Made by a program: the position numbers and the translations under genes. The notes under the pieces were generated by a model. That model was not told where the DNA came from and made no database searches. It was given only the letters and a program-made list of their open reading frames with translations. This document shows, in pieces, positions 14,674 to 27,345 of a stretch of DNA of 64,000 nt. Every line of letters starts with the position of its first letter. Positions within the stretch are counted from its first letter, which is position 1. This DNA comes from an uncultured Actinomycetes bacterium (GTDB taxonomy: Bacteria; Actinomycetota; Thermoleophilia; Gaiellales; Gaiellaceae): NCBI GenBank assembly GCA_963835965.1, contig CAWIHQ010000004.1, positions 151,921 to 215,920 of the forward strand, in the 5' to 3' direction.

Positions 14674-15315
14674 TCACTCGGCCTCGAGAAGACCACGGTC
14701 GAGCGCGTACGCCACCAGGTCTGCCCGGGTCTGCAGCCGGAGCTTCTGCATGATGTGCGCCCGGTGTGTCTCGGCCGTGCGGACCGAGATGTAGAGCATC
14801 TTCGCGATCTCCTGGTTCGTGTGGCCGAGTGCGAGCAGACGCAGCACCTCCCGCTCGCGGTCGGAGAGCGGATCCTCCTCGGCGAGCTTGGCCGCTTCGG
14901 CGTCGGCCGCCACGAGCCGCGCGCCGAGCTCCGGGTTGACGTAGCGCCCGCCGCCGGCGACCTCGCGAATCGCTGCCACGACCTCGTTGTCGGCCGCTTC
15001 CTTGAGGACGTAGCCGCTGGCACCCGCCGCGAACGCCTCGCGCACGTAGCGAGGCTCGTCCTGCATCGACAGGATGAGCACCTTCGCGTCCGGGTTCTCG
15101 TGCTTCAGCTGCGGCAGCACTTCGAGGCCCGTCTGCTCGGGCATGACGACGTCGAGCAGGATCACGTCGGGCTTGAGCGCCCGCCCTTGGAACACCGCAT
15201 CGCGGGCATTGCCCGCCTCGCCGACGGGCTCGAGGTCGTCCTCTGCCTCGAGGAGCAGCCGCAGGCCGGTCCGGACCACGGCGTGGTCGTCGACGATGAG
15301 GACCCGGATGCTCAC
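14674..15315 (-). CDS. NarL/LuxR-family response regulator (DevR/DosR-like)
   Basis: IRVLIVDDH, DVILLDVVMP, LSMQDEP... receiver, plus a LuxR HTH (LSDREREVLRLLALGHTNQEIAKMLYISVRTAETHRAHIMQKL). GTG at 15315 overlaps the kinase stop (GTGA). Confidence 0.9.
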   Translation of the reverse strand: MSIRVLIVDDHAVVRTGLRLLLEAEDDLEPVGEAGNARDAVFQGRALKPDVILLDVVMPEQTGLEVLPQLKHENPDAKVLILSMQDEPRYVREAFAAGASGYVLKEAADNEVVAAIREVAGGGRYVNPELGARLVAADAEAAKLAEEDPLSDREREVLRLLALGHTNQEIAKMLYISVRTAETHRAHIMQKLRLQTRADLVAYALDRGLLEAE

Positions 15316-16952
15316 CCGAGAGGCACCTCCGCGACGATCGTCGTCCCGGCGCCCGGGCGCGACTCGATCTCCAGCCGCCCGTCGACGAAGGACAGCCGCT
15401 CGCGCATGCCGAGTAGCCCCACGCCTTCCCCGCGGACGGCTCTCTGGTCGAAGCCGGCCCCGTCGTCCTCGATCACCGCTGCGACGGTGGACCCGCGCCG
15501 GGCGATCGAGACGCTGATGTTGTGCGCCTTCGCGTGCTTGACGATGTTCGTGAGCGACTCCTGCACGACCCGGTACAGCGTCGTCTCGACCTCGGACGGC
15601 AGCCGCTTGTCGCCGAGCGCCGAATGGAAGTCGACGCGAATGTCCGACTGCTCCGCGAACGCATCGGTCAGCCGCTCGAGCGCCGGCACGAGCCCGAAGT
15701 CGTCGAGCACGGCCGGGCGAAGCTCGACCGCGAGGCGGCGGACGTCCTGGAGAGCGCTCACGACCTGCTCCCGCAGCTCGACGAGGGCGGAGCGCGCCGG
15801 GTGGTCCGCGAGTGCCTCCTCGAGCGGTTTCAGCCCGAGCAGGATCGAGGTCAGTGCCTGCCCCGTCTCGTCGTGGAGCTCGCGCGCGAGCCTCTGACGC
15901 TCCAGCTCCTGCGCCTGCACGACGCGGCGGACCGCATCCCGCGCCACTCGCTGCGACAGCTCGACTGCGACGGCGGCGCGGGCCGCGAATGTCTCGGCCA
16001 GCCGGAAGTCGTCGTGGGAGAAGCGAGGGTCGAGGCCTTCCTTGTCGTGGATCTCGAGCACGCCGATACCCTGGTCGCGCGCGATCAGGGGGATCCACAT
16101 GCCGGTCCGGGCGGCGAGTTGCCGCGAGACCTCCTGGTGCACCTCGGGATCGTCGAGCACCGAGTCGATGCGCTCGCTGCGCCGACGCTCGAGCACGGCG
16201 CCGCTCTTCGACCCGGACCGGGAGATGGTCGTGCCGAGCAGACCCTCGGCGCCGGCCACCGCCGCGAACCGCAGTGCGTCACCGCCGCTCGGCAGCGCGA
16301 GCGCGACGACGCGGGCTCCGAGCAGCTCGCGCAGGCGCCGGACGACGAGGTCGAGCAGCTTTTCGAGATCGGTTTCGGTGGCCAGCGCGTTGCCGACCTC
16401 CTGCAGCGACTGCAGCTGCCGTGACCAGCGAGTCGAGGCCTCGTAGAGGCGCGCGTTCTCGATCGCCACCGCCGCCTGGCCGGCGAGGAGCGTGACGAGC
16501 TCCTCGTCCTCGTCCGTGAAATCCTCGCCGCTCTCTTTTTCGGTGAGGTAGACGTTCCCGTAGGCGACGCCGCGCAGCAAGATCGGCACGCCGAGGAAGC
16601 TGCGCATCGGTGGGTGCCCGGGAGGGAAGCCGACCGACCGCGGGTCCTCGGCGAGGTCGTGCAGGCGTAGCGGCCTCGCCTCGCGGATCAGCACCCCGAG
16701 GATGCCCCGCCCGCGCGGCAGCGCGCCGATCTCGGCGCGAAGGGCGTCGTCGATGCCGTGGGTGACGAACTGCTCGAGTTCCAAGCCGTTCGCGTCGATC
16801 ACGCCGAGCGCCGCGTAGCGCGCGCCCGTCAGCTCGGCCGCCACCTCCACGAGCCGACCCAGAAGTGCGTCCAGCGACAGCTCGGAGGTGACGGCGACTC
16901 CCGCCGCGAACAGCGCGCGCAGACGCCCTTCGGTGACCGACAGCGCGTCCAT
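15312..16952 (-). CDS. Tandem-GAF sensor histidine kinase (HisKA_3 + HATPase), DevS/DosT-like
   Basis: Two GAF-like regions. GFPPGHPPMRSFLGVPI...YGNVYLTEK resembles the heme-GAF segment of mycobacterial DevS/DosT (from memory). H-box RLARELHDETGQALTSI. ATPase motifs VQESLTNIVKHA, DDGAGF, GVGLLGMRER. Start is ATG 16952 or GTG 16991. Confidence 0.85.
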   Translation of the reverse strand: MDALSVTEGRLRALFAAGVAVTSELSLDALLGRLVEVAAELTGARYAALGVIDANGLELEQFVTHGIDDALRAEIGALPRGRGILGVLIREARPLRLHDLAEDPRSVGFPPGHPPMRSFLGVPILLRGVAYGNVYLTEKESGEDFTDEDEELVTLLAGQAAVAIENARLYEASTRWSRQLQSLQEVGNALATETDLEKLLDLVVRRLRELLGARVVALALPSGGDALRFAAVAGAEGLLGTTISRSGSKSGAVLERRRSERIDSVLDDPEVHQEVSRQLAARTGMWIPLIARDQGIGVLEIHDKEGLDPRFSHDDFRLAETFAARAAVAVELSQRVARDAVRRVVQAQELERQRLARELHDETGQALTSILLGLKPLEEALADHPARSALVELREQVVSALQDVRRLAVELRPAVLDDFGLVPALERLTDAFAEQSDIRVDFHSALGDKRLPSEVETTLYRVVQESLTNIVKHAKAHNISVSIARRGSTVAAVIEDDGAGFDQRAVRGEGVGLLGMRERLSFVDGRLEIESRPGAGTTIVAEVPLG

Positions 16953-17072
16953 TCGGAACAAGCCTAAACCTAGGTGCGTGGTTTCCCGCACCAGCAGACG
17001 GCTCCGCCCGGATGCCGATACCCTCGACCTGGACGAACACTGTCTCCATGATCACGAGAAGGAGGCAGTGAG

Positions 17073-17552
17073 ATGAGCGATACGAGACCGATTCTGTTCG
17101 CGACCGACGGGTCGCCTTCGGCCGAGGTGGCACAGCAGGAAGCGTTCGAGCTCGCCCAGCGGCTCGACGCTCCGCTCGTCGTCGTCTCCGTCGCGCACGC
17201 CCACCTGCCCGCGGTCGGCTACGCCGGCTACGGCTACTCGAACATCGTGGCCGAGCTCACGCAGGCCGAGCACAAGCGCGTGAAAGAGCTCCTGGCCACG
17301 ATCGCCACCTCTGCGTGTGCGGCCGGCCTGTCGTGCTCGACCGTCCTTGCCGACGGGTTCGCCGTCGAGGAGATCTGCGAGGTTGCGAGCGAGCACGACG
17401 CGCAGCTGATCGTGGTGGGCTCCCACGGCTGGGGCGCCGCGCGCCGGTTCCTGTCCGGCAGCGTCTCGACCGGGCTCGTCCATTCGGCGCCGTGTCCGGT
17501 ACTCGTCGTCCGACCGCGGGAGCAGCCCGCCCAACACGCGGCGGCCGCGTGA
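17073..17552 (+). CDS. Universal stress protein (UspA family)
   Basis: GAAGGAGG RBS. ILFATDGSPSA..., LIVVGSHGWGAARRFLSGSVSTGLVHSAPCPVLVV (ATP-binding G-2x-G-9x-G(S/T) type). Confidence 0.85.
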   Translation: MSDTRPILFATDGSPSAEVAQQEAFELAQRLDAPLVVVSVAHAHLPAVGYAGYGYSNIVAELTQAEHKRVKELLATIATSACAAGLSCSTVLADGFAVEEICEVASEHDAQLIVVGSHGWGAARRFLSGSVSTGLVHSAPCPVLVVRPREQPAQHAAAA

Positions 17553-20197
17553 GCGTCGCGGCGGCAGCCACGGTCGAGGCGACCGACGTCATCCTCCGCG
17601 ACGGATCGACGCTCCGGCTGAGAGCGCCGGCCGCGGAGGATGCCGACGCGCTGCTCGAGTTCTTCTCGGGCCTCTCCGACCACAGCCGCTACCTCCGCTT
17701 CCACGGCTTTCCCGCGCTCGGCCCGAAGCTCGTCGAGCCCCTGCTCGTGCCCGACTGGCAGGAGCGGGGCGCGCTGCTCGGGTCGCTCGACGGCCGCATC
17801 GTGGCCGTTGCGAACTGGTTCCGGCTGCGCGACCCGCGTGCCGCGGAGGTGGCCTTCACAGTCGGCGACGAGTTCCAACGGCGCGGAATCGGAACGCGCC
17901 TGCTCGAGCAGCTGGCGGCCCGGGCCTCGGAGGCCGGAATCGAGGAGTTCGTCGCCGAAGTCCTGCACGACAACGCCACGATGCTCCACGTCTTCCGCGA
18001 TGCCGGCTTCGCGGTCACACGCGCCGGCGAAGGCGGGGAACTCGAGATCCGTTTCGCGATCGCGCCGACCGACGCCTATCGCGAGCACGTCGCCGAGCGG
18101 GACCACGTCGCCGTGCGGGCCTCGCTCGAGCCGTTCTTCCAGCCGCGCTCCGTCGCCGTCGTCGGCGCCTCGAAGCGCCGCGGCTCGATCGGCGGTGAGC
18201 TCTTCCGCAACATCCTCACCGGTGACTTCGCCGGCTCCGTGTACCCGGTGAACCGGAAGGGCGACTCCGTCGCCGGCGTACACGGCTACGGCACGGTGGG
18301 GGAGATCGCAGAGGCCGTCGACCTCGCCGTCATCTGCCTCCCGGGAGAGCTTGTGCTGGACGCGGCAGAAGAGGCGCTCGCGGCGGGCGTTCGCGCGCTC
18401 GTCGTCATCTCGGCGGGCTTCGCCGAGACGGGCAGCGAAGGGACGGAGCGGCAGGAGCGGCTGCTCGAGCTCGTCCGCGCTCACGGCGCGCGCCTCCTCG
18501 GCCCGAACTGCCTCGGCATCGCCTCCACGGCCGTTCATCTCAACGCGACCTTCGCGCCGCGCAGCTTCCCCGCCGGCAAGATCGGCTTTTCCTCCCAGAG
18601 CGGTGCGCTCGGGCTCGCGTTGCTCGAGCGCGCGGAAGCGAGCGGCCTCGGCGTCACCTCCTTCGTCTCGATCGGCAACAAGGCGGACGTCTCGTCGAAC
18701 GACCTGCTCGAGTGGTGGGAGGATGATGACGCGACCGAGCTCGTCGTCCTCTACCTCGAGTCCTTCGGCAATCCACGCGCGTTCGCGCGGATCGCGCGCC
18801 GGCTCGCACGCCGCAAGCCGATCCTCGCACTGAAGGGCGGAACGACGCGCGCCGGCATCCGGGCGGCGGGATCGCACACCGCCGCGCTCGCCGGCTCGGA
18901 CGCCGCGGCCGACGCGCTCTTTGCGCATGCGGGCGTGATCCGGGCACGCACGCTCGACGAGCTGATCGACGTAGCGGCCCTCCTCTCGGCTCAGCCCGTG
19001 CCGCGCGGCCGGCGAGTCGCCGTCGTCACGAATGCCGGCGGTCTGGGAATCCTCGCTGCGGACGCATGCGAGGCGCTCGGCCTCGAGTTGCCGCCGCCGA
19101 GCGACGAGACGCGCACCGCGCTCGCCGCGTTCATGCCGGCCGAGGGGAGCGCCGCGAACCCGATCGACATGCTCGGTGGAGCGAACGCCGAGAGTTTCGA
19201 GAAGGCGCTTCCACCGGTTCTCGCCGATCCCGCGTTCGACGCCGCGATCGTCCTCTTCGTTCCGACGGTCGGTACGGACGAGGAGGTGGTCGGTGCCGCG
19301 ATCAGCCGAACTGCAGCGGCAGCCGTCGACAAGCCTGTCCTGTGCGCGTTCCTCAGCGCGAAGGGCGCTCCCGTCTCATTGCAGAGCGTGGCGCATGTGC
19401 CGTCCTTCGCCTATCCCGAGGCCGCCGCGAAGGCGCTCGCGAGAGCGGTCGAGCGCGGTGAATGGCTCCGACAGCCGGCGGGCACGGTCGCCGAGCTCGA
19501 GTGCGACCGCGACGAAGCGCAGGCCGTCGTGGGGGAGGCGGTCGCCGCGGGCGGGGGCTGGCTCGATCCCGGACAAACGCGCCGGCTGCTCGAGGCCTAC
19601 GGCGTTCCGCTCGTGCCCGAGCGCGTCGCGGCCACGACGCTGGAAGCGGTCGAGGCGGCGACCGAGCTCGGCTTCCCGGTCGTGCTCAAGACGGCTGCAC
19701 CCGGCGCGCACAAGACCGAGCAGGGCGGGATCGCTCTCGACCTCGCCGACGAGGAAGCCGTCGTCGAGGCGGCCGAGCGGATCGGTCCTCCGTTCGTCGT
19801 CCAGCCGTTCGTCCGCGGCGGTGCCGAGCTGCTCGCGGGTGCCGTGCAGGATCCTGTTTTCGGTCCGCTCGTCGCGTTCGGGCCCGGCGGTGTCCTGGCC
19901 GAGCTGATCGGGGAGGCGCAGTTCCGGCTGGCGCCGCTCACCGACCGCGACGCCGGCGAGCTCGTTCGCTCCGGCAAGGCCGGCCGGCTCGTGGCCGGCT
20001 TCCGAGGAACGCCGCCCGCCGACCAACAGGCGCTCGTGGACCTTCTCCTGGGCCTCTCGCGGCTCGTCGAGGAACTGCCCGAGGTCGTAGAACTCGACCT
20101 GAATCCCGTGCTGGCGCTCCCGGACGGCTGCCTTGCCGTCGATGCCAGGGTGCGCGTCGCGGAGCAGGGGCACGCGCATCGCACGAAGAGCTGGTAG
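17549..20197 (+). CDS. Pat-type protein acetyltransferase: N-terminal GNAT fused to an NDP-forming acyl-CoA synthetase-like region (CoA-binding, ligase-CoA, ATP-grasp)
   Basis: GNAT motif A QRRGIGTRLLEQL. Then PRSVAVVGASKRRGSIGG (CoA-binding), LLGPNCLGI, and a C-terminal ATP-grasp-like region (EAYGVPLV...GFPVVLK). GTG at 17549 overlaps the USP stop (GTGA). Confidence 0.85.
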   Translation: MSVAAAATVEATDVILRDGSTLRLRAPAAEDADALLEFFSGLSDHSRYLRFHGFPALGPKLVEPLLVPDWQERGALLGSLDGRIVAVANWFRLRDPRAAEVAFTVGDEFQRRGIGTRLLEQLAARASEAGIEEFVAEVLHDNATMLHVFRDAGFAVTRAGEGGELEIRFAIAPTDAYREHVAERDHVAVRASLEPFFQPRSVAVVGASKRRGSIGGELFRNILTGDFAGSVYPVNRKGDSVAGVHGYGTVGEIAEAVDLAVICLPGELVLDAAEEALAAGVRALVVISAGFAETGSEGTERQERLLELVRAHGARLLGPNCLGIASTAVHLNATFAPRSFPAGKIGFSSQSGALGLALLERAEASGLGVTSFVSIGNKADVSSNDLLEWWEDDDATELVVLYLESFGNPRAFARIARRLARRKPILALKGGTTRAGIRAAGSHTAALAGSDAAADALFAHAGVIRARTLDELIDVAALLSAQPVPRGRRVAVVTNAGGLGILAADACEALGLELPPPSDETRTALAAFMPAEGSAANPIDMLGGANAESFEKALPPVLADPAFDAAIVLFVPTVGTDEEVVGAAISRTAAAAVDKPVLCAFLSAKGAPVSLQSVAHVPSFAYPEAAAKALARAVERGEWLRQPAGTVAELECDRDEAQAVVGEAVAAGGGWLDPGQTRRLLEAYGVPLVPERVAATTLEAVEAATELGFPVVLKTAAPGAHKTEQGGIALDLADEEAVVEAAERIGPPFVVQPFVRGGAELLAGAVQDPVFGPLVAFGPGGVLAELIGEAQFRLAPLTDRDAGELVRSGKAGRLVAGFRGTPPADQQALVDLLLGLSRLVEELPEVVELDLNPVLALPDGCLAVDARVRVAEQGHAHRTKSW

Positions 20198-21986: not shown

Positions 21987-22928
21987 GTGTTCCTCAGCCG
22001 ATTCGCAGATCCGACCCCCAGTAACCGCCCGAACCTGAGCTTCCGGCAGGAGCTCACTGCGACAGGCGCGCTCAAGGATGAGTGGAGCTTTGTTTGGGAC
22101 GACGCGCTGCGGTCGAACATCGCGGCGACCCTCCAGGACGTGGAGTTCGATGTCTACCTCGTGAACCGGTACAACGTCTTCTGGACGCCGCGCGCGATGA
22201 AGTTCAAGCACGCGATCGTCCAGGCGGCATCGGTCGCGGAGGCCGTCCTCGATTACATGCTCCGGATGGTCGAGGACGACCCGCGAGCGCAGAAGGAGCT
22301 TGGCTCGAAGTGGACGCTGCGGGACTTCGCGAAGGTCCCGATGCCCGGCGTGGACTTGCCGGAGGGAGTACGCGTCGTCTCCGGCACCCAGGAGCAGATT
22401 CCGAACGTCCTCGACCGGAATACGAAGATGCAGCTGCTGATACGAGCGGCCCGCGCGGTCGAGATCGTCGACGAAGATCTCGCCAAGGAACTGGACACGC
22501 TCCGCGACCTCAGGAACCGCATCCACATCAAGACCCTCACGGACCCTGAGTACGACGCGTACGAGCCGAAGATGGCGAACGATGCGCTCGACGTTCTCGC
22601 ACGCTTCCGCGATGTTGCTCTCCAGTGGACCGTAGAAACGCGGGCGGCGGAACTGCGCGAGCCCGTGCTGTCCAACGACCTCACGAGCCAGGTCAGGTCT
22701 GCGCACGCGAACCGCGACGACAACACCGAGTTCGACGTGGCCGCGGCGCTGGCGGTCGATGACCTGGTGGTTCACTCGACCCTCGGCGAAGGGCTGGTCG
22801 TCGCCGTCGAGGGCGAAATCGTCTCTGTGCGCTTCTTCGGCGACGGCGCCGTTCGTCGGTTGATGCTCCCTTACGCCCCGATGTACAAGACCGGGGTGTT
22901 CAGGGCCGACGACGACATCCCGTTCTAG
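21987..22928 (+). CDS. Hypothetical protein: HEPN-like helical domain (RDLRNRIH) fused to a C-terminal PcrA/UvrD-type Tudor-like domain
   Basis: 313-aa ORF from GTG 21987 with coherent protein-like sequence. ...LAKELDTLRDLRNRIHIK... fits Rx4-6H. The C-terminus DDLVVHSTLGEGLVVAVEGEIVSVRFFGDGAVRRLMLPYAPM resembles the helicase C-terminal Tudor motif G..V.H..FGEG.V..V.G....V.F...G.K.L.L.YAPL. Confidence 0.6.
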   Translation: MFLSRFADPTPSNRPNLSFRQELTATGALKDEWSFVWDDALRSNIAATLQDVEFDVYLVNRYNVFWTPRAMKFKHAIVQAASVAEAVLDYMLRMVEDDPRAQKELGSKWTLRDFAKVPMPGVDLPEGVRVVSGTQEQIPNVLDRNTKMQLLIRAARAVEIVDEDLAKELDTLRDLRNRIHIKTLTDPEYDAYEPKMANDALDVLARFRDVALQWTVETRAAELREPVLSNDLTSQVRSAHANRDDNTEFDVAAALAVDDLVVHSTLGEGLVVAVEGEIVSVRFFGDGAVRRLMLPYAPMYKTGVFRADDDIPF

Positions 22929-22929
22929 G

Positions 22930-23427
22930 TTGGCCACGAACGTTGTCTCCTTGCTCGTGGTCGCGCTCGGCGGCGGGATCGTCGCAGCGTTGTTGGGATC
23001 GTGGTTCGACCGGCTCTCGGCGCTGGAGGTCGCTCGACTAGTGGTGCAGGCGGAACTCATGGCCAACCTTGCGGCGCACCACGCATTCGCAGCCCTCGGA
23101 CCCGGCGACGAAGCACCGCATGTCCAGTACTCGACCAGCGGATGGCTCACCCACAGGGACAGGCTGGCCATCAGAGCGCAGCGTTTCCCGGACGTTTGGC
23201 AGGCGCTCACCAACTTCTACGCGCTTGTGCTGGCGCTGCCCTATGACAGCAGTCCGCTCGACGAGGACAGCGAGACGCAGGCGAGCTACGCCGTCGCGAA
23301 CCTCGACGTGCTGGAGCCGAGCACTCTGGAGCTCGTCCGGTGTATGGGCCACGACGCGCTTGGGCGATCTGGCGTGAGCGGCGCCGCGCGAGGGCCGCTC
23401 ACGCTAAAGGAACTGGCTGCTGACTAA
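22930..23427 (+). CDS. Small single-pass membrane protein, co-oriented and abutting the preceding gene
   Basis: TTG at 22930, 1 nt after the upstream TAG. N-terminal TM helix VVSLLVVALGGGIVAALLGSWF followed by a helical domain. Confidence 0.5.
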   Translation: MATNVVSLLVVALGGGIVAALLGSWFDRLSALEVARLVVQAELMANLAAHHAFAALGPGDEAPHVQYSTSGWLTHRDRLAIRAQRFPDVWQALTNFYALVLALPYDSSPLDEDSETQASYAVANLDVLEPSTLELVRCMGHDALGRSGVSGAARGPLTLKELAAD

Positions 23428-23535: not shown

Positions 23536-24153
23536 TCACCACGGGCTCTTCCCGACGAGGGACTTTGCTTCGGTCGCAATCGCCGTATCCACTTTCGCGC
23601 CGAGCTCCTCGACGAAGGCCCTCCAATCGAGGGCGTTCTGCTTGTAGAAGTCGGGAGGCGCCTTTCCCGTATCCACGATCTGCCCACGCTCTTCAACAAG
23701 CCTGTCTAGCTTCTCCTTGTCGTCGTCGGATAGATCGCAGAACGGGTCAACGCCCACGCGCTCGAAGAGACCGGCGACGGTTTTGACATCCGCTGACAGG
23801 ACGCCGAAGTCGCGGGCCTTCTCAGCGTCGCCCTTGGCCCGGGCTCGAACCATTTGGACCCAAAGTTCCCGCCACCCAGGGTGGACAACGAGATCCCATG
23901 CCGTCGGCGGCGGCTGCATCTTCATCAGCCAGTCTCGAACGCTCGCTGGGACGTTGCCCTCCCCGATTTGCTCTGCAAGCGCTGTTGTGACCTCGACGGC
24001 CACCTCCTCCACGTAGTTCTCCCACACTGCATATGAGAGCGCTACGGAGGCGACAAAGAGCGACTGCTCCTTCTTCGAGGGCTTGCCAACGCCCGACTTC
24101 GCAAAGCTCAGCACGTCATCGACCGCCTTGAGGCCGCCCCGCAAATCCTTCAA
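23536..24153 (-). CDS. Hypothetical protein with a RiboL-PSP/MAE_28990-type HEPN-like layout (Asp in place of the motif His)
   Basis: 205 aa. The N-terminal helix FVASVALSYAVWENYVEEVAVEV resembles the (A)HWEGF(V/I)K helix of these HEPN families. The C-terminal LDRLVEERGQIVDTG sits where L..L...RN.IAHG is expected. TTG at 24153 is the first possible start. Confidence 0.55.
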   Translation of the reverse strand: MKDLRGGLKAVDDVLSFAKSGVGKPSKKEQSLFVASVALSYAVWENYVEEVAVEVTTALAEQIGEGNVPASVRDWLMKMQPPPTAWDLVVHPGWRELWVQMVRARAKGDAEKARDFGVLSADVKTVAGLFERVGVDPFCDLSDDDKEKLDRLVEERGQIVDTGKAPPDFYKQNALDWRAFVEELGAKVDTAIATEAKSLVGKSPW

Positions 24154-24293: not shown

Positions 24294-24794
24294 TCAGTCA
24301 TCGCACGTCATTTTTAGAGGTTTCAGACCGCTGAGGACGTACATCCAGCCGCCGGCGACGCTTTCCGCCGTCTTCGGCGCGCCCTCGAGTTGGTCGTGCA
24401 CGACGGTGAGCCTGGTGATGCCGCCGTCCTGGGGCTCGATCTCCCAGGTGACGCGGCTCTCCGCCTCCGCCGCCAGATCGGGGTCGTAACCCGCCGTCCA
24501 GCCGTGCACGAGCCTGCGCGGGGGATCGGCCTCGTACACCTCCTCGTCCCACTCGGCATCCCCGATCGCCGAGAAACGGCGGCCGTCGCGCACCTCGATG
24601 CGGGCGCCGAAGAAGTACTGCCGGGTGAACTCCGCCTGCGTGATCGCGTTCCAGACCTGCTCGGGTGTGGCGCGGATGAAGACGGAGTAGACCTGCGTCG
24701 TCTGTGCCAGCCCAGGGCCGCCGCTTGCGACGGCCCGGTCTTCCCGCTGGGCGTCCGCGGCTTTGCCGCCGACGTTTCCTGCAATGGTAGTCAT
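24294..24794 (-). CDS. SRPBCC/AHSA1-family protein
   Basis: YSVFIRATPEQVWNAITQAEFTRQYFFG..., RLVHGW..., TRLTVVHDQLEGAP...GGWMYVLSGLK. ATG at 24794 overlaps the arsR stop. Confidence 0.8.
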   Translation of the reverse strand: MTTIAGNVGGKAADAQREDRAVASGGPGLAQTTQVYSVFIRATPEQVWNAITQAEFTRQYFFGARIEVRDGRRFSAIGDAEWDEEVYEADPPRRLVHGWTAGYDPDLAAEAESRVTWEIEPQDGGITRLTVVHDQLEGAPKTAESVAGGWMYVLSGLKPLKMTCDD

Positions 24795-25108
24795 GCGGTG
24801 TCCTCCAGTTCGTGCTTGAGATCCGCGAGCGCCGCCACGCGGTGCTCGGTGTACTTGTCGATCCACCGGTCGTGGATGAGCCGGATCGGAACCGGGTTCA
24901 GGAAGTGGAGCTTCTCCCGGCCCTCCCGTCGGGTGACGACGAGCCCGGCTTCCTCGAGCACGCGCAGATGCTTCATCACACCGAAGCGGGTCATCTCCAG
25001 CTCGGACTCGAGCTCCGTGAGCGTGCGGCCGTCGCGCTCGAAGAGCTGGTCGAGCAAGTGACGCCGCGTCGGATCGGCGAGCGCCTTGAAGACCTGGTCG
25101 TCGTCCAC
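24791..25108 (-). CDS. ArsR/SmtB-family transcriptional regulator
   Basis: FKALADPTRRHLLDQL...RTLTELESELEMTRFGVMKHLRVLEEAGLV. This is the typical ArsR + SRPBCC gene pair. Confidence 0.85.
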   Translation of the reverse strand: MDDDQVFKALADPTRRHLLDQLFERDGRTLTELESELEMTRFGVMKHLRVLEEAGLVVTRREGREKLHFLNPVPIRLIHDRWIDKYTEHRVAALADLKHELEDTA

Positions 25109-26152: not shown

Positions 26153-26350
26153 ATGGCGGTGACGGTTCGCACGGCGGATGGAAAGGAACTCGCGCGTGTG
26201 GCTGTCAGCGGTGTGGTCGATGGGGCAGATTTCCCGTCGTCTGGGTCTGCTCGGAGGAGGAATGGGCCGCGGCGCACGGGAGCGGGAACGTTCCGACAGC
26301 GCTTCCGTGGCCTGCGGAGGATGTACGGCCGGCTGAGGAACAGGTGCCCG
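26153..26350 (+). pseudogene. Small hypothetical gene with a +1 frameshift
   Basis: MAVTVRTADGKELARVAVSGVVDGADFP then, one base out of frame, VVWVCSEEEWAAAHGSGNVPTALPWPAEDVRPAEEQVPA*. The second half is protein-like only in the shifted frame. Confidence 0.35.
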
Positions 26351-26459
26351 CGTGACCGAGAAGAAAGAGCCGGAGGAGAAGCCCTATGCGCGAGCGGACT
26401 TCATGCGCGATCTCGGAGAAGGCATCTAGGAAGCTAGAGCCGGAGAAGAAGGCGAAGAA

Positions 26460-27345
26460 GCGAACGCCCTTCCGGACGTTCCGGAGGAAGACCTTGAACA
26501 TCGGCACGCGATCGTGGCGGTGGCTGTACTTGAACGCGAACTCCTGCACGTAGAGTCCGAGCCACTTACGGGCTGACGTTGTGCTGGACGCCTGAGAGCC
26601 CACGCTTCACGTTGCCGAAGAACCCCTCGATCGTCTGCGTATGAACGTCGCCCTGCGCGTAGATCGATTCCGTGTGCTTGATCGTGTAGTGACGTGCGAA
26701 CTCCGCGCCAAGTCCCGCATATAGCGTGAACTCGTCCGTGTAGATCGTCGCGTCTGGGCTGACGTTGGCGCGGATTGCGGCGTGGAGCGTTTCGCGGCTC
26801 CGGTCCGGAACGACGATCGCGCGTGCCCGACCGCCGCGCTCGACCATTGCGAGATCGTCGGGCGACTCTGAATCTTCGCCATAGCGTCCTGCCGACGCCG
26901 TGTCGATGTTGCGGCGCGCGACGGTCCCCTGCTCGAATCTTCCCGCCCCACGCTGACTCGTCAATCTCGACCTCGCCGCGCAACGGCGTTGTGTCGTCGT
27001 CGAGTAGGAGGCGCCGGATCATGTTGAACATGCGCCATGCCGTCTTGTACGTCACGCCGATTTCGCGTTCGAGTTGCTTCGCGCTGATACCGCAGCGTGT
27101 CTGGCTCATGATGAAGATCGCGTGGAACCACACCGCAACGGCGTCGTGGACTTCTCGAAGATCGTCCCCGCTGTCGGATGGACATGGTGGCCGCACGAAT
27201 CGCATGAGACGAGTGCGGCCTTTACGCGATGGACCGGCGTGGTCTGCCGCACTTCGGACAATCGGCAGTGATCCGTCGACGCTGGGAGTTGCGCCAGAGG
27301 TATGAGGCAGGCGTCATCCGTCGGGAACGGTGGAAAGGTGAGCGT
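26460..27345 (-). mobile_element. IS1595-family (ISXO2-like) transposase gene remnant with at least 3 frameshifts
   Basis: The pieces lie in four frames. (1) Zn-ribbon/N-terminus ...FPTDDACL...CDSCGHHVHPTAGTIFEKSTTPL. (2) WFHAIFIMSQTRCGISAKQLEREIGVTYKTAWRMFNMIRRLL...GEVEIDESAWGG. (3) DDE core ...AIVVPDRSRETLHAAIRANVSPDATIYTDEFTLYAGLG..HYTIKH...YAQGDVHTQTIEGFFGNVKRGLSGV. (4) KWLGLYVQEFAFKYSHRHD. No inverted repeats identified. Confidence 0.7.

What the first reader, a model, noticed from the sequence alone, without database searches (positions are those of the whole stretch)
21987..22928. HEPN-like domain fused to a PcrA/UvrD-type Tudor (RNA-polymerase-binding) domain
The 313-aa protein has no housekeeping family I recognise.
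- Its helical body carries ...LAKELDTLRDLRNRIHIK..., which fits the HEPN Rx4-6H RNase signature (R-DLRNRI-H).
- Its last about 45 residues (DDLVVHSTLGEGLVVAVEGEIVSVRFFGDGAVRRLMLPYAPMY) closely resemble the C-terminal Tudor-like module of PcrA/UvrD helicases (G..V.H..FGEG.V..V.G....V.F...G.K.L.L.YAPL).
- In PcrA/UvrD that module docks onto RNA polymerase.
- A predicted RNase-type domain tethered to an RNAP-docking module is an architecture I do not know from described toxin, Abi or defence systems.
Basis: partly seen in the sequence, partly recalled or inferred. Interest (0 to 1): 0.75.

Follow-up and report, generated by a model that had tools for sequence, protein, structure and literature searches.

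The report
HEPN-like protein with borrowed docking tags

Summary
ORF 21987-22928 (+) is a real 313-aa gene.

- **Tudor module.** The C-terminal module (aa 257-304) is a PcrA/UvrD-type Tudor domain. The family profile hits only UvrD/PcrA C-termini in the PDB (E=1.3e-6). The AF2 model superposes on 7egt_B at TM 0.90 and 1.0 Å.
- **N-terminal body.** Residues 1-225 match no Pfam, NCBIfam or PADLOC model. They do have HEPN topology, a conserved Glu in helix 2, and a near-invariant R-N-x-x-H at the end of helix 3. Nearly all top Foldseek hits are HEPN toxins, but with weak E-values.
  - The protein ends in DDDIPF, the exact hexapeptide of the SSB C-terminal tip. It follows a disordered linker and is kept in about 50 of 60 homologs.
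  - The Tudor module is optional (about 22 of 60 homologs, patchy on the tree).
  - More distant ~200-aa relatives have neither tag and always pair with a small basic upstream ORF, like a toxin-antitoxin pair.
- **Context.** Neighbourhoods vary and are rich in restriction-modification (RM), toxin-antitoxin (TA), TIR and integrase genes.

Most likely this is an accessory, conflict-type HEPN-like effector docked to RNAP/UvrB and to SSB-partner proteins. Activity and partners are untested. I rate it a new variant of a known kind, of moderately high interest.

The parts
21987..22928 (+). Whole gene: 313 aa, GTG start, TAG stop
   Evidence: ORF list and translation. GC3 0.86. A 100%-identical protein, P0001, is in NCBI/ENA, and there are 60 homologs.
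21987..22661 (+). N-terminal helical domain (aa 1-225) of an undescribed HEPN-like family. H1 aa 39-61, H2 aa 66-94, poorly ordered insert aa 95-162, H3 aa 163-181, H4 aa 194-224.
   Evidence: AF2 model has pLDDT 82 and pTM 0.78. Top Foldseek PDB hits are HepT, DUF86, AF0298 and Csm6 HEPN proteins, with TMt 0.5-0.67 and E 0.08-2. The best-probability viral hit is a MAE_28990-like HEPN. hhalign to the ~200-aa stand-alone relatives gives prob 99.9%, E 1e-35.
22239..22241 (+). E85, conserved acidic residue in helix 2
   Evidence: Glu in 178 of 185 aligned relatives. It corresponds to the 'second conserved acidic residue in helix-2' of HEPN domains (PMC3710099).
22503..22532 (+). Putative active-site motif R173-D-L-R176-N177-R-I-H180-I-K182, at the end of helix 3
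   Evidence: R176 178/185, N177 168/185, H180 179/185, R173 152/185. R..RN..H occurs in 0.085% of shuffles. [quoted passage not shown]
22662..22754 (+). Linker (aa 226-256): helix extension followed by a low-confidence acidic stretch
   Evidence: pLDDT is 51-68. Length and sequence vary among homologs.
22755..22898 (+). PcrA/UvrD-type Tudor domain (aa 257-304, five beta strands)
   Evidence: PF21196 matches aa 257-301. The family profile hits 7egt_B at 1.3e-6 and then only UvrD/PcrA chains. Foldseek to 7egt_B gives TMt 0.90, rmsd 1.0 Å, 40% identity. H263, L266, R289 and L291 align with the PcrA RNAP-binding residues H681, W684, K712 and L714.
22908..22925 (+). C-terminal hexapeptide DDDIPF, identical to the SSB C-terminal tip (SSB-Ct)
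   Evidence: Read directly from the sequence. pLDDT is below 50. Exactly DDDIPF in 22 of 60 C-terminally complete homologs, and about 50 of 60 once close variants are counted, behind linkers of 27-116 aa after the conserved Trp that closes the N-domain (W214 in the query). SSB-Ct is defined as DDDIPF in PMC5872125.

Best explanation
The gene encodes a solitary, accessory protein with three parts.

1. A ~225-aa domain of an undescribed family with HEPN architecture. I predict it is a metal-independent RNase that uses R176, N177 and H180 together with E85.
2. An optional PcrA/UvrD-type Tudor domain. In those helicases this module docks onto a beta-hairpin 'helicase interaction motif' of RNAP beta and UvrB.
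3. A disordered linker ending in DDDIPF, the hexapeptide through which SSB recruits its many genome-maintenance partners.

The most likely mechanism is that the two borrowed docking tags tether, or gate, the HEPN-like effector at transcription complexes and at SSB-partner proteins on replication and repair intermediates. Its RNA-directed activity would then be exerted, or released, there. The gene behaves like a conflict (toxin or defence-type) gene, not a housekeeping gene.

Shown here: the domain architecture, the conservation pattern, and the sporadic distribution with variable, defence-rich neighbourhoods. Inferred: RNase activity, the binding partners, and the biological role.
For: - **Tudor homology.** Sequence profile and structure agree. 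Three of the four PcrA RNAP-binding positions are kept or conservatively replaced.
- **SSB-like tail.** It is conserved behind linkers that vary greatly in length and sequence. The linkers often carry extra internal copies such as DDDIDWGPP and PDFGPP. This is the pattern expected of a selected short linear motif.
- **HEPN-like features as defined in PMC3710099.**
  - Two alpha-hairpins with an insert between H2 and H3.
  - A basic-polar-His motif at the end of H3.
  - A conserved Glu in H2.
  - HEPN toxins dominate the Foldseek lists.
- **Relatives.** The ~200-aa stand-alone relatives form overlapping two-gene modules with a conserved 46-66-aa basic ORF in 5 of 5 loci examined. One sits next to a HEPN-MNT pair and a NYN gene.
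- **Accessory behaviour.**
  - Only about 60 protein clusters were found among 5.8 billion clustered sequences.
  - Only 3 of 185,579 species genomes carry it.
  - Six of seven distinct actinobacterial neighbourhoods hold RM, TA, TIR, NERD, Schlafen, integrase or resolvase genes within 5 kb.
  - In the window the gene opens a low-GC stretch (0.63-0.65 against about 0.70). That stretch also holds a RiboL-PSP HEPN gene and an IS1595 transposase fragment.
Against: - No HEPN sequence profile matches the family in Pfam, NCBIfam or PADLOC. There are only marginal DUF4145 and PF05168 hits, in 5 of 50 distant relatives.
- Foldseek E-values for the N-domain are not significant (0.08-2).
- The invariant Arg-His spacing is x3, outside the canonical x4-6.
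- W684 of PcrA is Leu here, so RNAP/UvrB binding may differ.
- I could not establish the host's own SSB tail sequence.
- One homolog (L021) sits in a purely metabolic neighbourhood.
- There is no conserved partner gene, no PADLOC hit, and no hit in plasmid or phage collections.
- No biochemical data of any kind exist.
Confidence: 0.5

Rival explanations
1. Bait or guard model. The DDDIPF tip and the Tudor domain do not deliver the protein anywhere. They are decoys that imitate SSB and UvrD. A phage or plasmid protein that hijacks the SSB-Ct or the RNAP/UvrB helicase-interaction motif binds them. That releases an autoinhibited HEPN-like toxin and causes abortive infection.
For: - Neighbourhoods are defence-rich.
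- The tail plus internal repeats give a multivalent acidic-aromatic motif on a flexible linker.
- Tails ending in DDDIPF are common in viral contigs and occur on non-OB proteins such as a RadD-like helicase. Mobile elements therefore clearly use this interaction network.
- The Tudor and linker modules are swapped frequently, with at least 10 changes on the tree, as expected under an arms race.
Against: - There is no evidence of autoinhibition.
- The N-domain is itself acidic (pI 5.1), so a simple electrostatic tail-on-domain lock is not obvious.
- There is no PADLOC match.
- No phage-challenge data exist.
Confidence: 0.2
2. Housekeeping-type accessory factor of replication-transcription conflict or R-loop/primer processing. 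In this reading an RNA-directed enzyme is recruited by RNAP, UvrB and SSB partners, by analogy with RNase HI (an SSB-Ct binder) and PcrA/UvrD (R-loop suppression).
For: - Both tags come from genome-maintenance proteins.
- The PcrA Tudor-RNAP interaction suppresses R-loops (PMC8318588).
- One homolog lies among metabolic genes.
- One stand-alone relative lies among housekeeping genes: sodA, cca, hflX.
Against: - The distribution is extremely sporadic: 3 of 185,579 species genomes.
- There is no conserved synteny.
- The gene lies in a low-GC island with an IS fragment in the window.
- Most neighbourhoods hold RM, TA or integrase genes.
Confidence: 0.12
3. Non-catalytic competitor, possibly encoded by a mobile element. 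The protein soaks up SSB-partner proteins, RNAP or UvrB through its tags, for example to blunt host repair or recombination. In this reading the helical domain is a binding or oligomerisation module, not a nuclease.
For: - L007 and L020 carry an integrase or a resolvase beside the gene.
- Some HEPN domains are non-catalytic binding modules (PMC3710099).
Against: - Near-invariance of R176, N177, H180, E85, N44 and K74 across relatives that share only about 25% identity points to catalysis.
- There are no hits in 50,697 phage or 72,556 plasmid records.
- The stand-alone relatives lack both tags yet keep the motif.
Confidence: 0.08
4. The DDDIPF tail has nothing to do with SSB. It would be a family-specific C-terminal motif, such as a degron, a self-association peptide, or a ligand for an unknown partner, and only coincides with the SSB tip.
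For: - Internal variants such as DDDIDW/FGPP lack the free C-terminal carboxylate that SSB-Ct pockets use.
- From memory, not verified here: actinobacterial SSBs typically end in DDEPPF, not DDDIPF. A literature search for that string found nothing.
Against: - The identity to the SSB-Ct hexapeptide is exact, it sits at the very C-terminus, and it follows a disordered linker, exactly as in SSB.
- The family's variants (DDDFPF, DDDVPF, GDDEPF, SDEEPF) stay within the acidic-x-P-F pattern.
- It co-occurs with a second repair-protein docking module.
Confidence: 0.1

Closest known systems
HepT/DUF86 and other small HEPN toxins (e.g. SO_3166 HepT, PDB 5yep/7bxo; A. flos-aquae HEPN, 7ae8; YutE, 1ylm; MAE_28990/MAE_18760-like HEPN)
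   Same: - All-alpha four-helix core.
- Arg-Asn...His motif at the end of helix 3, followed by a conserved aromatic residue.
- A conserved acidic residue in helix 2.
- The stand-alone relatives occur as tightly coupled two-gene modules, like TA pairs.
- These proteins are the top Foldseek hits.
   Different: - No detectable sequence-profile similarity.
- The invariant spacing is R-N-x-x-H, one residue shorter than RNxxxH.
- A large ~70-aa insert lies between H2 and H3.
- The partner in the stand-alone relatives is a small basic ORF, not a MNT nucleotidyltransferase.
- The window protein has no partner and carries C-terminal docking tags instead.
C-terminal Tudor domain of PcrA/UvrD helicases (PF21196; PDB 5dma, 7egt, 7egs, 6yi2, 9dqs)
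   Same: - Homologous five-stranded Tudor fold: 40% identity to T. thermophilus UvrD CTD, 1.0 Å rmsd.
- Preceded by a disordered linker near the C-terminus.
- The residues His, basic and Leu that PcrA needs for RNAP binding are kept (H263, R289, L291).
   Different: - Attached to a HEPN-like domain, not to an SF1 helicase.
- W684 is replaced by Leu.
- Followed by about 9 further residues that end in DDDIPF.
- Present in only about a third of family members.
SSB C-terminal tip (SSB-Ct, DDDIPF) with its intrinsically disordered linker
   Same: - Identical hexapeptide at the extreme C-terminus.
- Preceded by a variable, low-complexity, Pro/Gly/acidic linker.
   Different: - There is no OB fold, so the protein is not an SSB.
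- The linkers often hold additional internal acidic-aromatic repeats (DDDIDWGPP).
- Partners are unknown.
Non-SSB viral proteins ending in DDDIPF (e.g. RadD-like helicase in IMG/VR contig L045, found here)
   Same: They carry the same portable SSB-type tip on a non-OB protein.
   Different: - Their catalytic domains are unrelated: an SF2 helicase, small helical proteins, and others.
- My SSB versus non-SSB sorting was crude, so many of the others may be divergent phage SSBs.

Membership tests
HEPN superfamily (as defined in Anantharaman et al. 2013, PMC3710099) | Core of four helices in two alpha-hairpins (H1-H2, H3-H4) | tested here: met
   The AF2 model (pLDDT 82, pTM 0.78) has H1 39-61, H2 66-94, H3 163-181 and H4 194-224.
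HEPN superfamily (as defined in Anantharaman et al. 2013, PMC3710099) | Significant structural similarity to solved HEPN domains | tested here: inconclusive
   About 30 of the top 40 PDB hits are HEPN proteins (HepT, 7ae*, YutE, AF0298, Csm6), with TMt 0.5-0.67. E-values are only 0.08-2. The viral library gives a MAE_28990-like HEPN at prob 0.80.
HEPN superfamily (as defined in Anantharaman et al. 2013, PMC3710099) | [quoted passage not shown] | tested here: met
   aa 95-162 form a low-confidence loop plus short helices. This is the most variable region of the alignment.
HEPN superfamily (as defined in Anantharaman et al. 2013, PMC3710099) | [quoted passage not shown] | tested here: inconclusive
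   The position is right. The near-invariant pair R176-N177...H180 has an x3 spacing. The x6 spacing uses R173, which is conserved in only 152 of 185 relatives.
HEPN superfamily (as defined in Anantharaman et al. 2013, PMC3710099) | Conserved acidic residue in helix 2 (often Ex3[KR]) | tested here: met
   E85 is Glu in 178 of 185 relatives and lies in H2. The Ex3[KR] context itself is not present.
HEPN superfamily (as defined in Anantharaman et al. 2013, PMC3710099) | Match to a HEPN-clan sequence profile | tested here: not met
   Pfam, NCBIfam and PADLOC give no hit for the query or for 50 distant relatives at E<=0.01. The only marginal hits are DUF4145 (3 of 50) and PF05168 (2 of 50) at E about 0.09. 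hhalign against three single HEPN sequences was negative. HHpred against Pfam/PDB70 was not available.
HEPN superfamily (as defined in Anantharaman et al. 2013, PMC3710099) | Metal-independent RNase activity | not testable with these tools
   This needs biochemistry.
PcrA/UvrD Tudor domain (PF21196) | Sequence-profile match | tested here: met
   The query alone scores 16-21 bits, below the gathering threshold (GA) of 23.9. However, 22 of 23 family members match, best at 1.6e-7. The family profile retrieves only UvrD/PcrA C-termini from the PDB, with 7egt at 1.3e-6.
PcrA/UvrD Tudor domain (PF21196) | Five-stranded Tudor/SH3-like barrel | tested here: met
   Strands are 259-263, 267-275, 278-283, 289-293 and 299-304, with pLDDT 84-95. 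Foldseek gives TMt 0.90 and rmsd 1.0 Å to 7egt_B.
PcrA/UvrD Tudor domain (PF21196) | RNAP-binding surface residues (G. stearothermophilus PcrA H681, W684, K712, L714; PMC5397179) | tested here: inconclusive
   The aligned residues are H263 (invariant), L266 (Trp to Leu), R289 (Lys to Arg) and L291.
PcrA/UvrD Tudor domain (PF21196) | Lies at the C-terminus of an SF1 UvrD/PcrA helicase | tested here: not met
   There is no helicase domain. The N-terminal part is the HEPN-like domain.
PcrA/UvrD Tudor domain (PF21196) | Binds the helicase-interaction motif of RNAP beta or UvrB | not testable with these tools
   This needs pull-downs or complex modelling with the host's RpoB and UvrB, which are not in the window.
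Bacterial SSB (for the tail only) | Acidic C-terminal tip D-D-D-I-P-F at the extreme C-terminus after a disordered linker | tested here: met
   aa 308-313 are DDDIPF, followed by the stop codon. pLDDT is below 50. The tip is conserved in about 50 of 60 homologs. The motif is defined in PMC5872125.
Bacterial SSB (for the tail only) | OB-fold ssDNA-binding domain | tested here: not met
   There is no OB fold in the model and no SSB profile hit. The protein is not an SSB.
Type II toxin-antitoxin / known defence system | Conserved adjacent partner gene, or a match to a catalogued defence-system protein | tested here: not met
   - The window gene has no conserved neighbour. Its downstream 165-aa membrane ORF is not conserved in other loci.
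- Neither the small basic partner of the stand-alone relatives nor the 202-aa partner of one subclade is in the window.
- PADLOC gives no hits.

The most novel reading that the evidence does not exclude
This is a conflict-system HEPN-type RNase that works by molecular mimicry of two genome-maintenance docking modules, the SSB C-terminal tip and the UvrD/PcrA Tudor domain. Through them it plugs into the SSB interactome and into RNAP/UvrB. It could do so in either of two ways: riding to replication and transcription complexes, or acting as bait for invader proteins that hijack those hubs. It would be the first effector shown to use SSB-Ct mimicry. The stand-alone relatives with their small basic partner would define a new, widespread HEPN-like two-gene (TA-like) family, found among other lineages in Patescibacteria.
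Probability: 0.3. Interest if true: 0.8.

Novelty: new variant of a known kind. Interest (0 to 1): 0.62.

Why it matters
If the predictions hold, a toxin or defence-type nuclease can acquire 'address labels' copied from core repair proteins (the SSB tip and the UvrD Tudor domain) to reach, or to monitor, the replication and transcription machinery.

That would add a new logic of targeting or sensing to bacterial conflict systems. It would also provide a natural SSB-Ct mimic for probing the SSB interactome in Actinobacteria.

Independently of that, the N-domain family is absent from Pfam, NCBIfam and PADLOC. This covers about 370 representatives at 50% identity, together with a conserved small partner ORF that is also absent from Pfam. 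Both deserve a family definition.

Tried and rejected
- **Profile scans of the query and 50 distant relatives.** Pfam, NCBIfam and PADLOC gave nothing for the N-domain.
- **PDB sequence searches.** Single-sequence and profile searches with the N-domain returned only noise: CutA, IscS.
- **Is the neighbouring RiboL-PSP HEPN gene (23536-24153, -) a paralog or partner?** hhalign and BLASTP say no.
- **hhalign against single canonical HEPN sequences.** L016 PF05168 and L001 Abi_C/HEPN were both negative.
- **tblastn in 72,556 plasmids and 50,697 phage records.** No match for the query or for a stand-alone relative.
- **Word-indexed search with the distant-relative profile.** Unproductive, 4 hits.
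- **Cluster names.** All members are unnamed or 'hypothetical'.
- **Search for the small basic partner or the 202-aa partner in the window and the actinobacterial loci.** Absent, except that the 202-aa gene is present in one subclade.
- **Is the downstream 165-aa membrane ORF a conserved partner?** No.
- **Literature searches.** DDDIPF+HEPN, HEPN+Tudor+UvrD, DDDIPF+toxin and SSB-Ct mimic gave no precedent.
- **Bare Rx4-6H match as evidence.** Rejected, because it occurs in 64% of shuffles.
- **Promoter and terminator scan.** Nothing informative.
Full report
**1. The observation**

The window contains an ORF at 21987-22928 on the + strand.
- It has a GTG start and a TAG stop and encodes 313 aa.
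- Its codon-position GC profile (0.68 / 0.39 / 0.86) is that of a real gene in this ~70% GC genome.
- The start codon agrees with the 'MFxxRF' N-termini of homologs.

An identical protein is on record from an NCBI/ENA contig of 598 kb. Relatives found in a scan of 185,579 species genomes come from only three MAGs: Gaiellales, Gaiellaceae and an uncultured Actinomycetes bacterium.

**2. The C-terminal module is a PcrA/UvrD-type Tudor domain**

- *Query alone:* it scores below Pfam's threshold for PF21196 (16-21 bits against 23.9). It hits T. thermophilus UvrD CTD at E=0.004.
- *Family level:* the case is clear. 22 of 23 members match PF21196, best at 1.6e-7. A profile of the family's module retrieves only UvrD/PcrA C-termini from the whole PDB: 7egt 1.3e-6, 4c2t, 5dma, 6yi2, 7egs, 9dqs, 1qhh, 1pjr, 9dci.
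- *Structure:* the AF2 model has five strands with pLDDT 84-95. It superposes on 7egt_B with TM 0.90, rmsd 1.0 Å and 40% identity. The next best hits are the other UvrD/PcrA Tudor structures.

Sanders et al. showed that H681, W684, K712 and L714 of G. stearothermophilus PcrA are needed for RNAP binding (PMC5397179). The aligned residues here are H263 (invariant in the family), L266, R289 and L291.

In PcrA this domain binds a beta-hairpin 'helicase interaction motif' present in RpoB and UvrB (PMC8318588). The likely partners are therefore RNAP beta and/or UvrB. This is inference.

**3. The N-terminal body**

*Sequence searches.* Residues 1-225 have no hit in Pfam, NCBIfam or PADLOC. They have none in the PDB by sequence, even with a family profile.

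*A wider family.* An exhaustive HMMER search of 1.84 billion representatives found 367 relatives.
- Beyond the actinobacterial clade, most are ~200-aa stand-alone proteins.
- hhalign between the two groups gives 99.9% probability, E=1e-35.
- These relatives also match no curated family. There are only marginal DUF4145 and PF05168 hits, in 5 of 50.

*Conservation over 185 aligned proteins.*

| Residue | Location | Conserved in |
|---|---|---|
| N44 | helix 1 | 178 |
| K74 | helix 2 | 173 (plus 8 Arg) |
| E85 | helix 2 | 178 |
| R176 | end of helix 3 | 178 |
| N177 | end of helix 3 | 168 |
| H180 | end of helix 3 | 179 |
| position 188 | H3-H4 loop | Glu or Asp in 173 |
| Y192 | H3-H4 loop | Tyr or Phe in 174 |

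*Structure.* The AF2 model of the domain (pLDDT 82, pTM 0.78) shows:
- two alpha-hairpins, H1 39-61 with H2 66-94 and H3 163-181 with H4 194-224;
- a poorly ordered insert between H2 and H3;
- the R-x2-R-N-x2-H motif at the end of H3, entering the loop to H4.

*Comparison with the HEPN definition.* According to Anantharaman et al. (PMC3710099), a HEPN domain has a four-helix core, an insert between helices 2 and 3, the Rx4-6H motif at the end of helix 3, a polar residue after the Arg, and a conserved acidic residue in helix 2. All of these match.

*Fold searches.* Foldseek against the PDB returns almost only HEPN proteins at the top: HepT 7bxo/6m6u/6m6w/5yep, the 7ae* HEPN toxin, YutE 1ylm, AF0298 2hsb and Csm6. 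TM scores normalised to the target are 0.5-0.67. The best-probability viral hit is a MAE_28990/MAE_18760-like HEPN protein.

*Caveats.*
- The Foldseek E-values (0.08-2) are not significant.
- The invariant Arg-His spacing is x3, not x4-6.
- The bare Rx4-6H regex is worthless on its own, since it occurs in 64% of shuffles.

I therefore call the domain 'HEPN-like, probably a new HEPN family'. I do not call it a proven member.

**4.

*(a) An SSB-type tail.*
- The protein ends in DDDIPF (nt 22908-22925). This is the exact hexapeptide of the SSB C-terminal tip, through which SSB binds its many partners (PMC5872125).
- The tail is predicted to be disordered.
- Among 60 C-terminally complete homologs, 22 end in exactly DDDIPF. 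About 50 end in it or a close variant such as DDIPF, DDDIPW, DDDFPF, DDDVPF, GDDEPF or SDEEPF.
- The tail is kept although the preceding linker varies from 27 to 116 residues and is not alignable.
- Many linkers carry extra internal copies of an acidic-aromatic motif (DDDIDWGPP, DDDIDFGPP, EPDYGPP, PDFGPP), up to four per protein.

*(b) The Tudor domain is optional.*
- About 22 of 60 homologs have it.
- Close relatives of the query, at 76-79% identity in the N-domain (P0004-P0006), lack it.
- Parsimony on an NJ tree of the N-domain needs at least 10 gains or losses.
- The constant appendage is thus the SSB-like tip. The Tudor domain is an interchangeable extra.

*(c) The stand-alone relatives have a small partner ORF.*
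- The ~200-aa relatives have neither tag.
- In all five independent loci examined they are preceded by an overlapping ORF of 46-66 aa. It is strongly basic and highly conserved, with the consensus KRKDTKMGTIEKKYGKDFGVRSDKKLGNYLKEKGYxSLSELLK.
- This small ORF has 145 clusters of its own, some from Candidatus Parcubacteria/Patescibacteria, and no Pfam match.
- In L016 the pair lies beside a canonical HEPN-MNT pair and a NYN gene.
- This is the layout of a toxin-antitoxin-like module.
- The actinobacterial clade, including the window gene, has lost that partner. One subclade has a different 202-aa upstream gene.

**5. Genomic context**

*In the window.*
- The gene is divergent from a BNR/sortilin-repeat gene.
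- It starts a stretch of lower GC, 0.63-0.65 against about 0.70.
- That stretch contains an unconserved 165-aa membrane ORF, a separate RiboL-PSP-type HEPN gene (23536-24153, -), an ArsR/AHSA1 pair and an IS1595-family transposase fragment.

*Elsewhere.*

| Locus | Neighbours of the homolog |
|---|---|
| L003 | MmeI-type RM enzyme and a Schlafen/AlbA_2 protein |
| L004-6 | NYN and PIN toxin genes |
| L009 | NERD nuclease |
| L007 | EcoO109I-type restriction enzyme, integrase, excisionase-like HTH, MT-A70 methylase and an RHS toxin |
| L020 | Resolvase, MTase-Mrr fusion, TIR protein and an HsdR-N protein |
| L001 | Abi_C/HEPN protein |
| L021 | Metabolic genes only |

There is no conserved operon. 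There is also no hit in plasmid or phage collections.

**6. Interpretation**

*Shown:* a three-part architecture of HEPN-like domain, optional UvrD/PcrA Tudor domain, and disordered linker with SSB-Ct tip. Also shown are strong purifying selection on a putative active site and on the tip, and a sporadic distribution with defence- or MGE-rich neighbourhoods.

*Inferred:* the N-domain is a metal-independent RNase. The Tudor domain docks on RNAP beta or UvrB. The tip docks in the SSB-Ct pockets of genome-maintenance proteins.

*Preferred reading (confidence about 0.5).* This is a conflict-type effector whose borrowed docking tags place it at, or gate it by, transcription and replication/repair hubs.

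*Rivals.* I cannot exclude any of these:
- a bait or guard model, in which invader proteins that hijack the SSB-Ct or the helicase-interaction motif trigger the toxin;
- a housekeeping R-loop or primer-processing role;
- a non-catalytic competitor of SSB or UvrD;
- a tail motif unrelated to SSB.

*Portability of the tip.* A scan of viral contigs found many ORFs ending in DDDIPF that my crude iterative OB-fold filter did not class as SSBs. One is a RadD-like SF2 helicase, E=1e-73 to RadD.

**7. Novelty**

Neither the HEPN census (PMC3710099 contains no mention of Tudor or SSB) nor full-text searches turned up this architecture. The searches tried were HEPN+Tudor+UvrD, DDDIPF+HEPN and DDDIPF+toxin.

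The parts are known kinds: a HEPN-type effector, a Tudor docking domain and an SSB-Ct motif. The combination is new, and so are the N-domain family and its small partner. I class it as a new variant of a known kind. Interest is 0.62. It would surprise a specialist and is directly testable, but every functional statement is still prediction.

Noticed in passing
L011:7840-7995, L013:1670-1810, L014:4804-5004, L016:4001-4177, L018:4001-4165 (each directly upstream of a ~200-aa relative): A highly conserved, very basic 46-66-aa ORF (consensus KRKDTKMGTIEKKYGKDFGVRSDKKLGNYLKEKGYxSLSELLK) always overlaps the start of the stand-alone N-domain relatives. It has 145 clusters in the protein collection, some from Candidatus Parcubacteria/Patescibacteria, and no Pfam match. 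It looks like an undescribed two-gene, TA-like module.
   Followed up: partly
Homologs P0004-P0006, P0013, P0015, P0023, P0041-P0044, P0053 (linker regions): The disordered linkers carry up to four internal copies of an acidic-aromatic motif (DDDIDWGPP, DDDIDFGPP, EPDYGPP, PDFGPP) in addition to the terminal DDDIPF. This suggests a multivalent short linear motif.
   Followed up: partly
window 23536-24153 (-): A separate 205-aa protein matches Pfam HEPN_RiboL-PSP (E=1.6e-6, 28.6 bits, just above threshold, N-terminal part only). It lies 600 bp downstream on the opposite strand. It has no detectable relationship to the target's N-domain.
   Followed up: partly
window 26205-27205 (-), especially 26566-26964: There is an IS1595/ISXO2-like DDE transposase fragment, apparently broken over several frames. 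It lies inside a 22-28 kb stretch where GC drops to 0.63-0.65 against about 0.70 in the flanks. This looks like a variable or island-like region.
   Followed up: no
window 22930-23427 (+): A 165-aa ORF with an N-terminal transmembrane segment starts 2 nt after the target's stop codon, so it may be co-transcribed. It has no Pfam hit and is not conserved next to homologs elsewhere.
   Followed up: partly
L004:2083-2691, L005:1505-2113, L006:1902-2510, L009:9389-9997, L010:2921-3529: One Tudor-less subclade (P0046-like) has a conserved 202-aa gene immediately upstream, with a gap of 3 nt or less and 75-78% identity between loci. It has no Pfam match. Its N-terminus (..LMEFFDFLTAKGYATP..) faintly recalls the FLKEKGY motif of the small basic partner of the stand-alone relatives.
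   Followed up: no
IMG/VR loci L022-L141, e.g. L045 (562-aa ORF on the - strand): Many ORFs in viral contigs that end in DDDIPF were not recognised as OB-fold SSBs by a crude iterative HMM. They include a RadD-like SF2 helicase (E=1e-73 to PDB 6jde), a recurrent ~75-aa helical protein, and 200-290-aa proteins that may be non-classical phage SSBs or recombinases.
   Followed up: partly
window 24294-25108 (-): An ArsR-family HTH gene (24791-25108) overlaps an AHSA1/SRPBCC-family gene (24294-24866). This is a typical small regulatory pair and is unrelated to the finding.
   Followed up: no
window 17315-20197 (+) and 15312-16991 (-): Upstream neighbours are a 960-aa GNAT plus CoA-ligase/ATP-grasp protein (Pat-like protein acetyltransferase architecture) and a double-GAF histidine kinase. 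This is ordinary chromosomal context.
   Followed up: no
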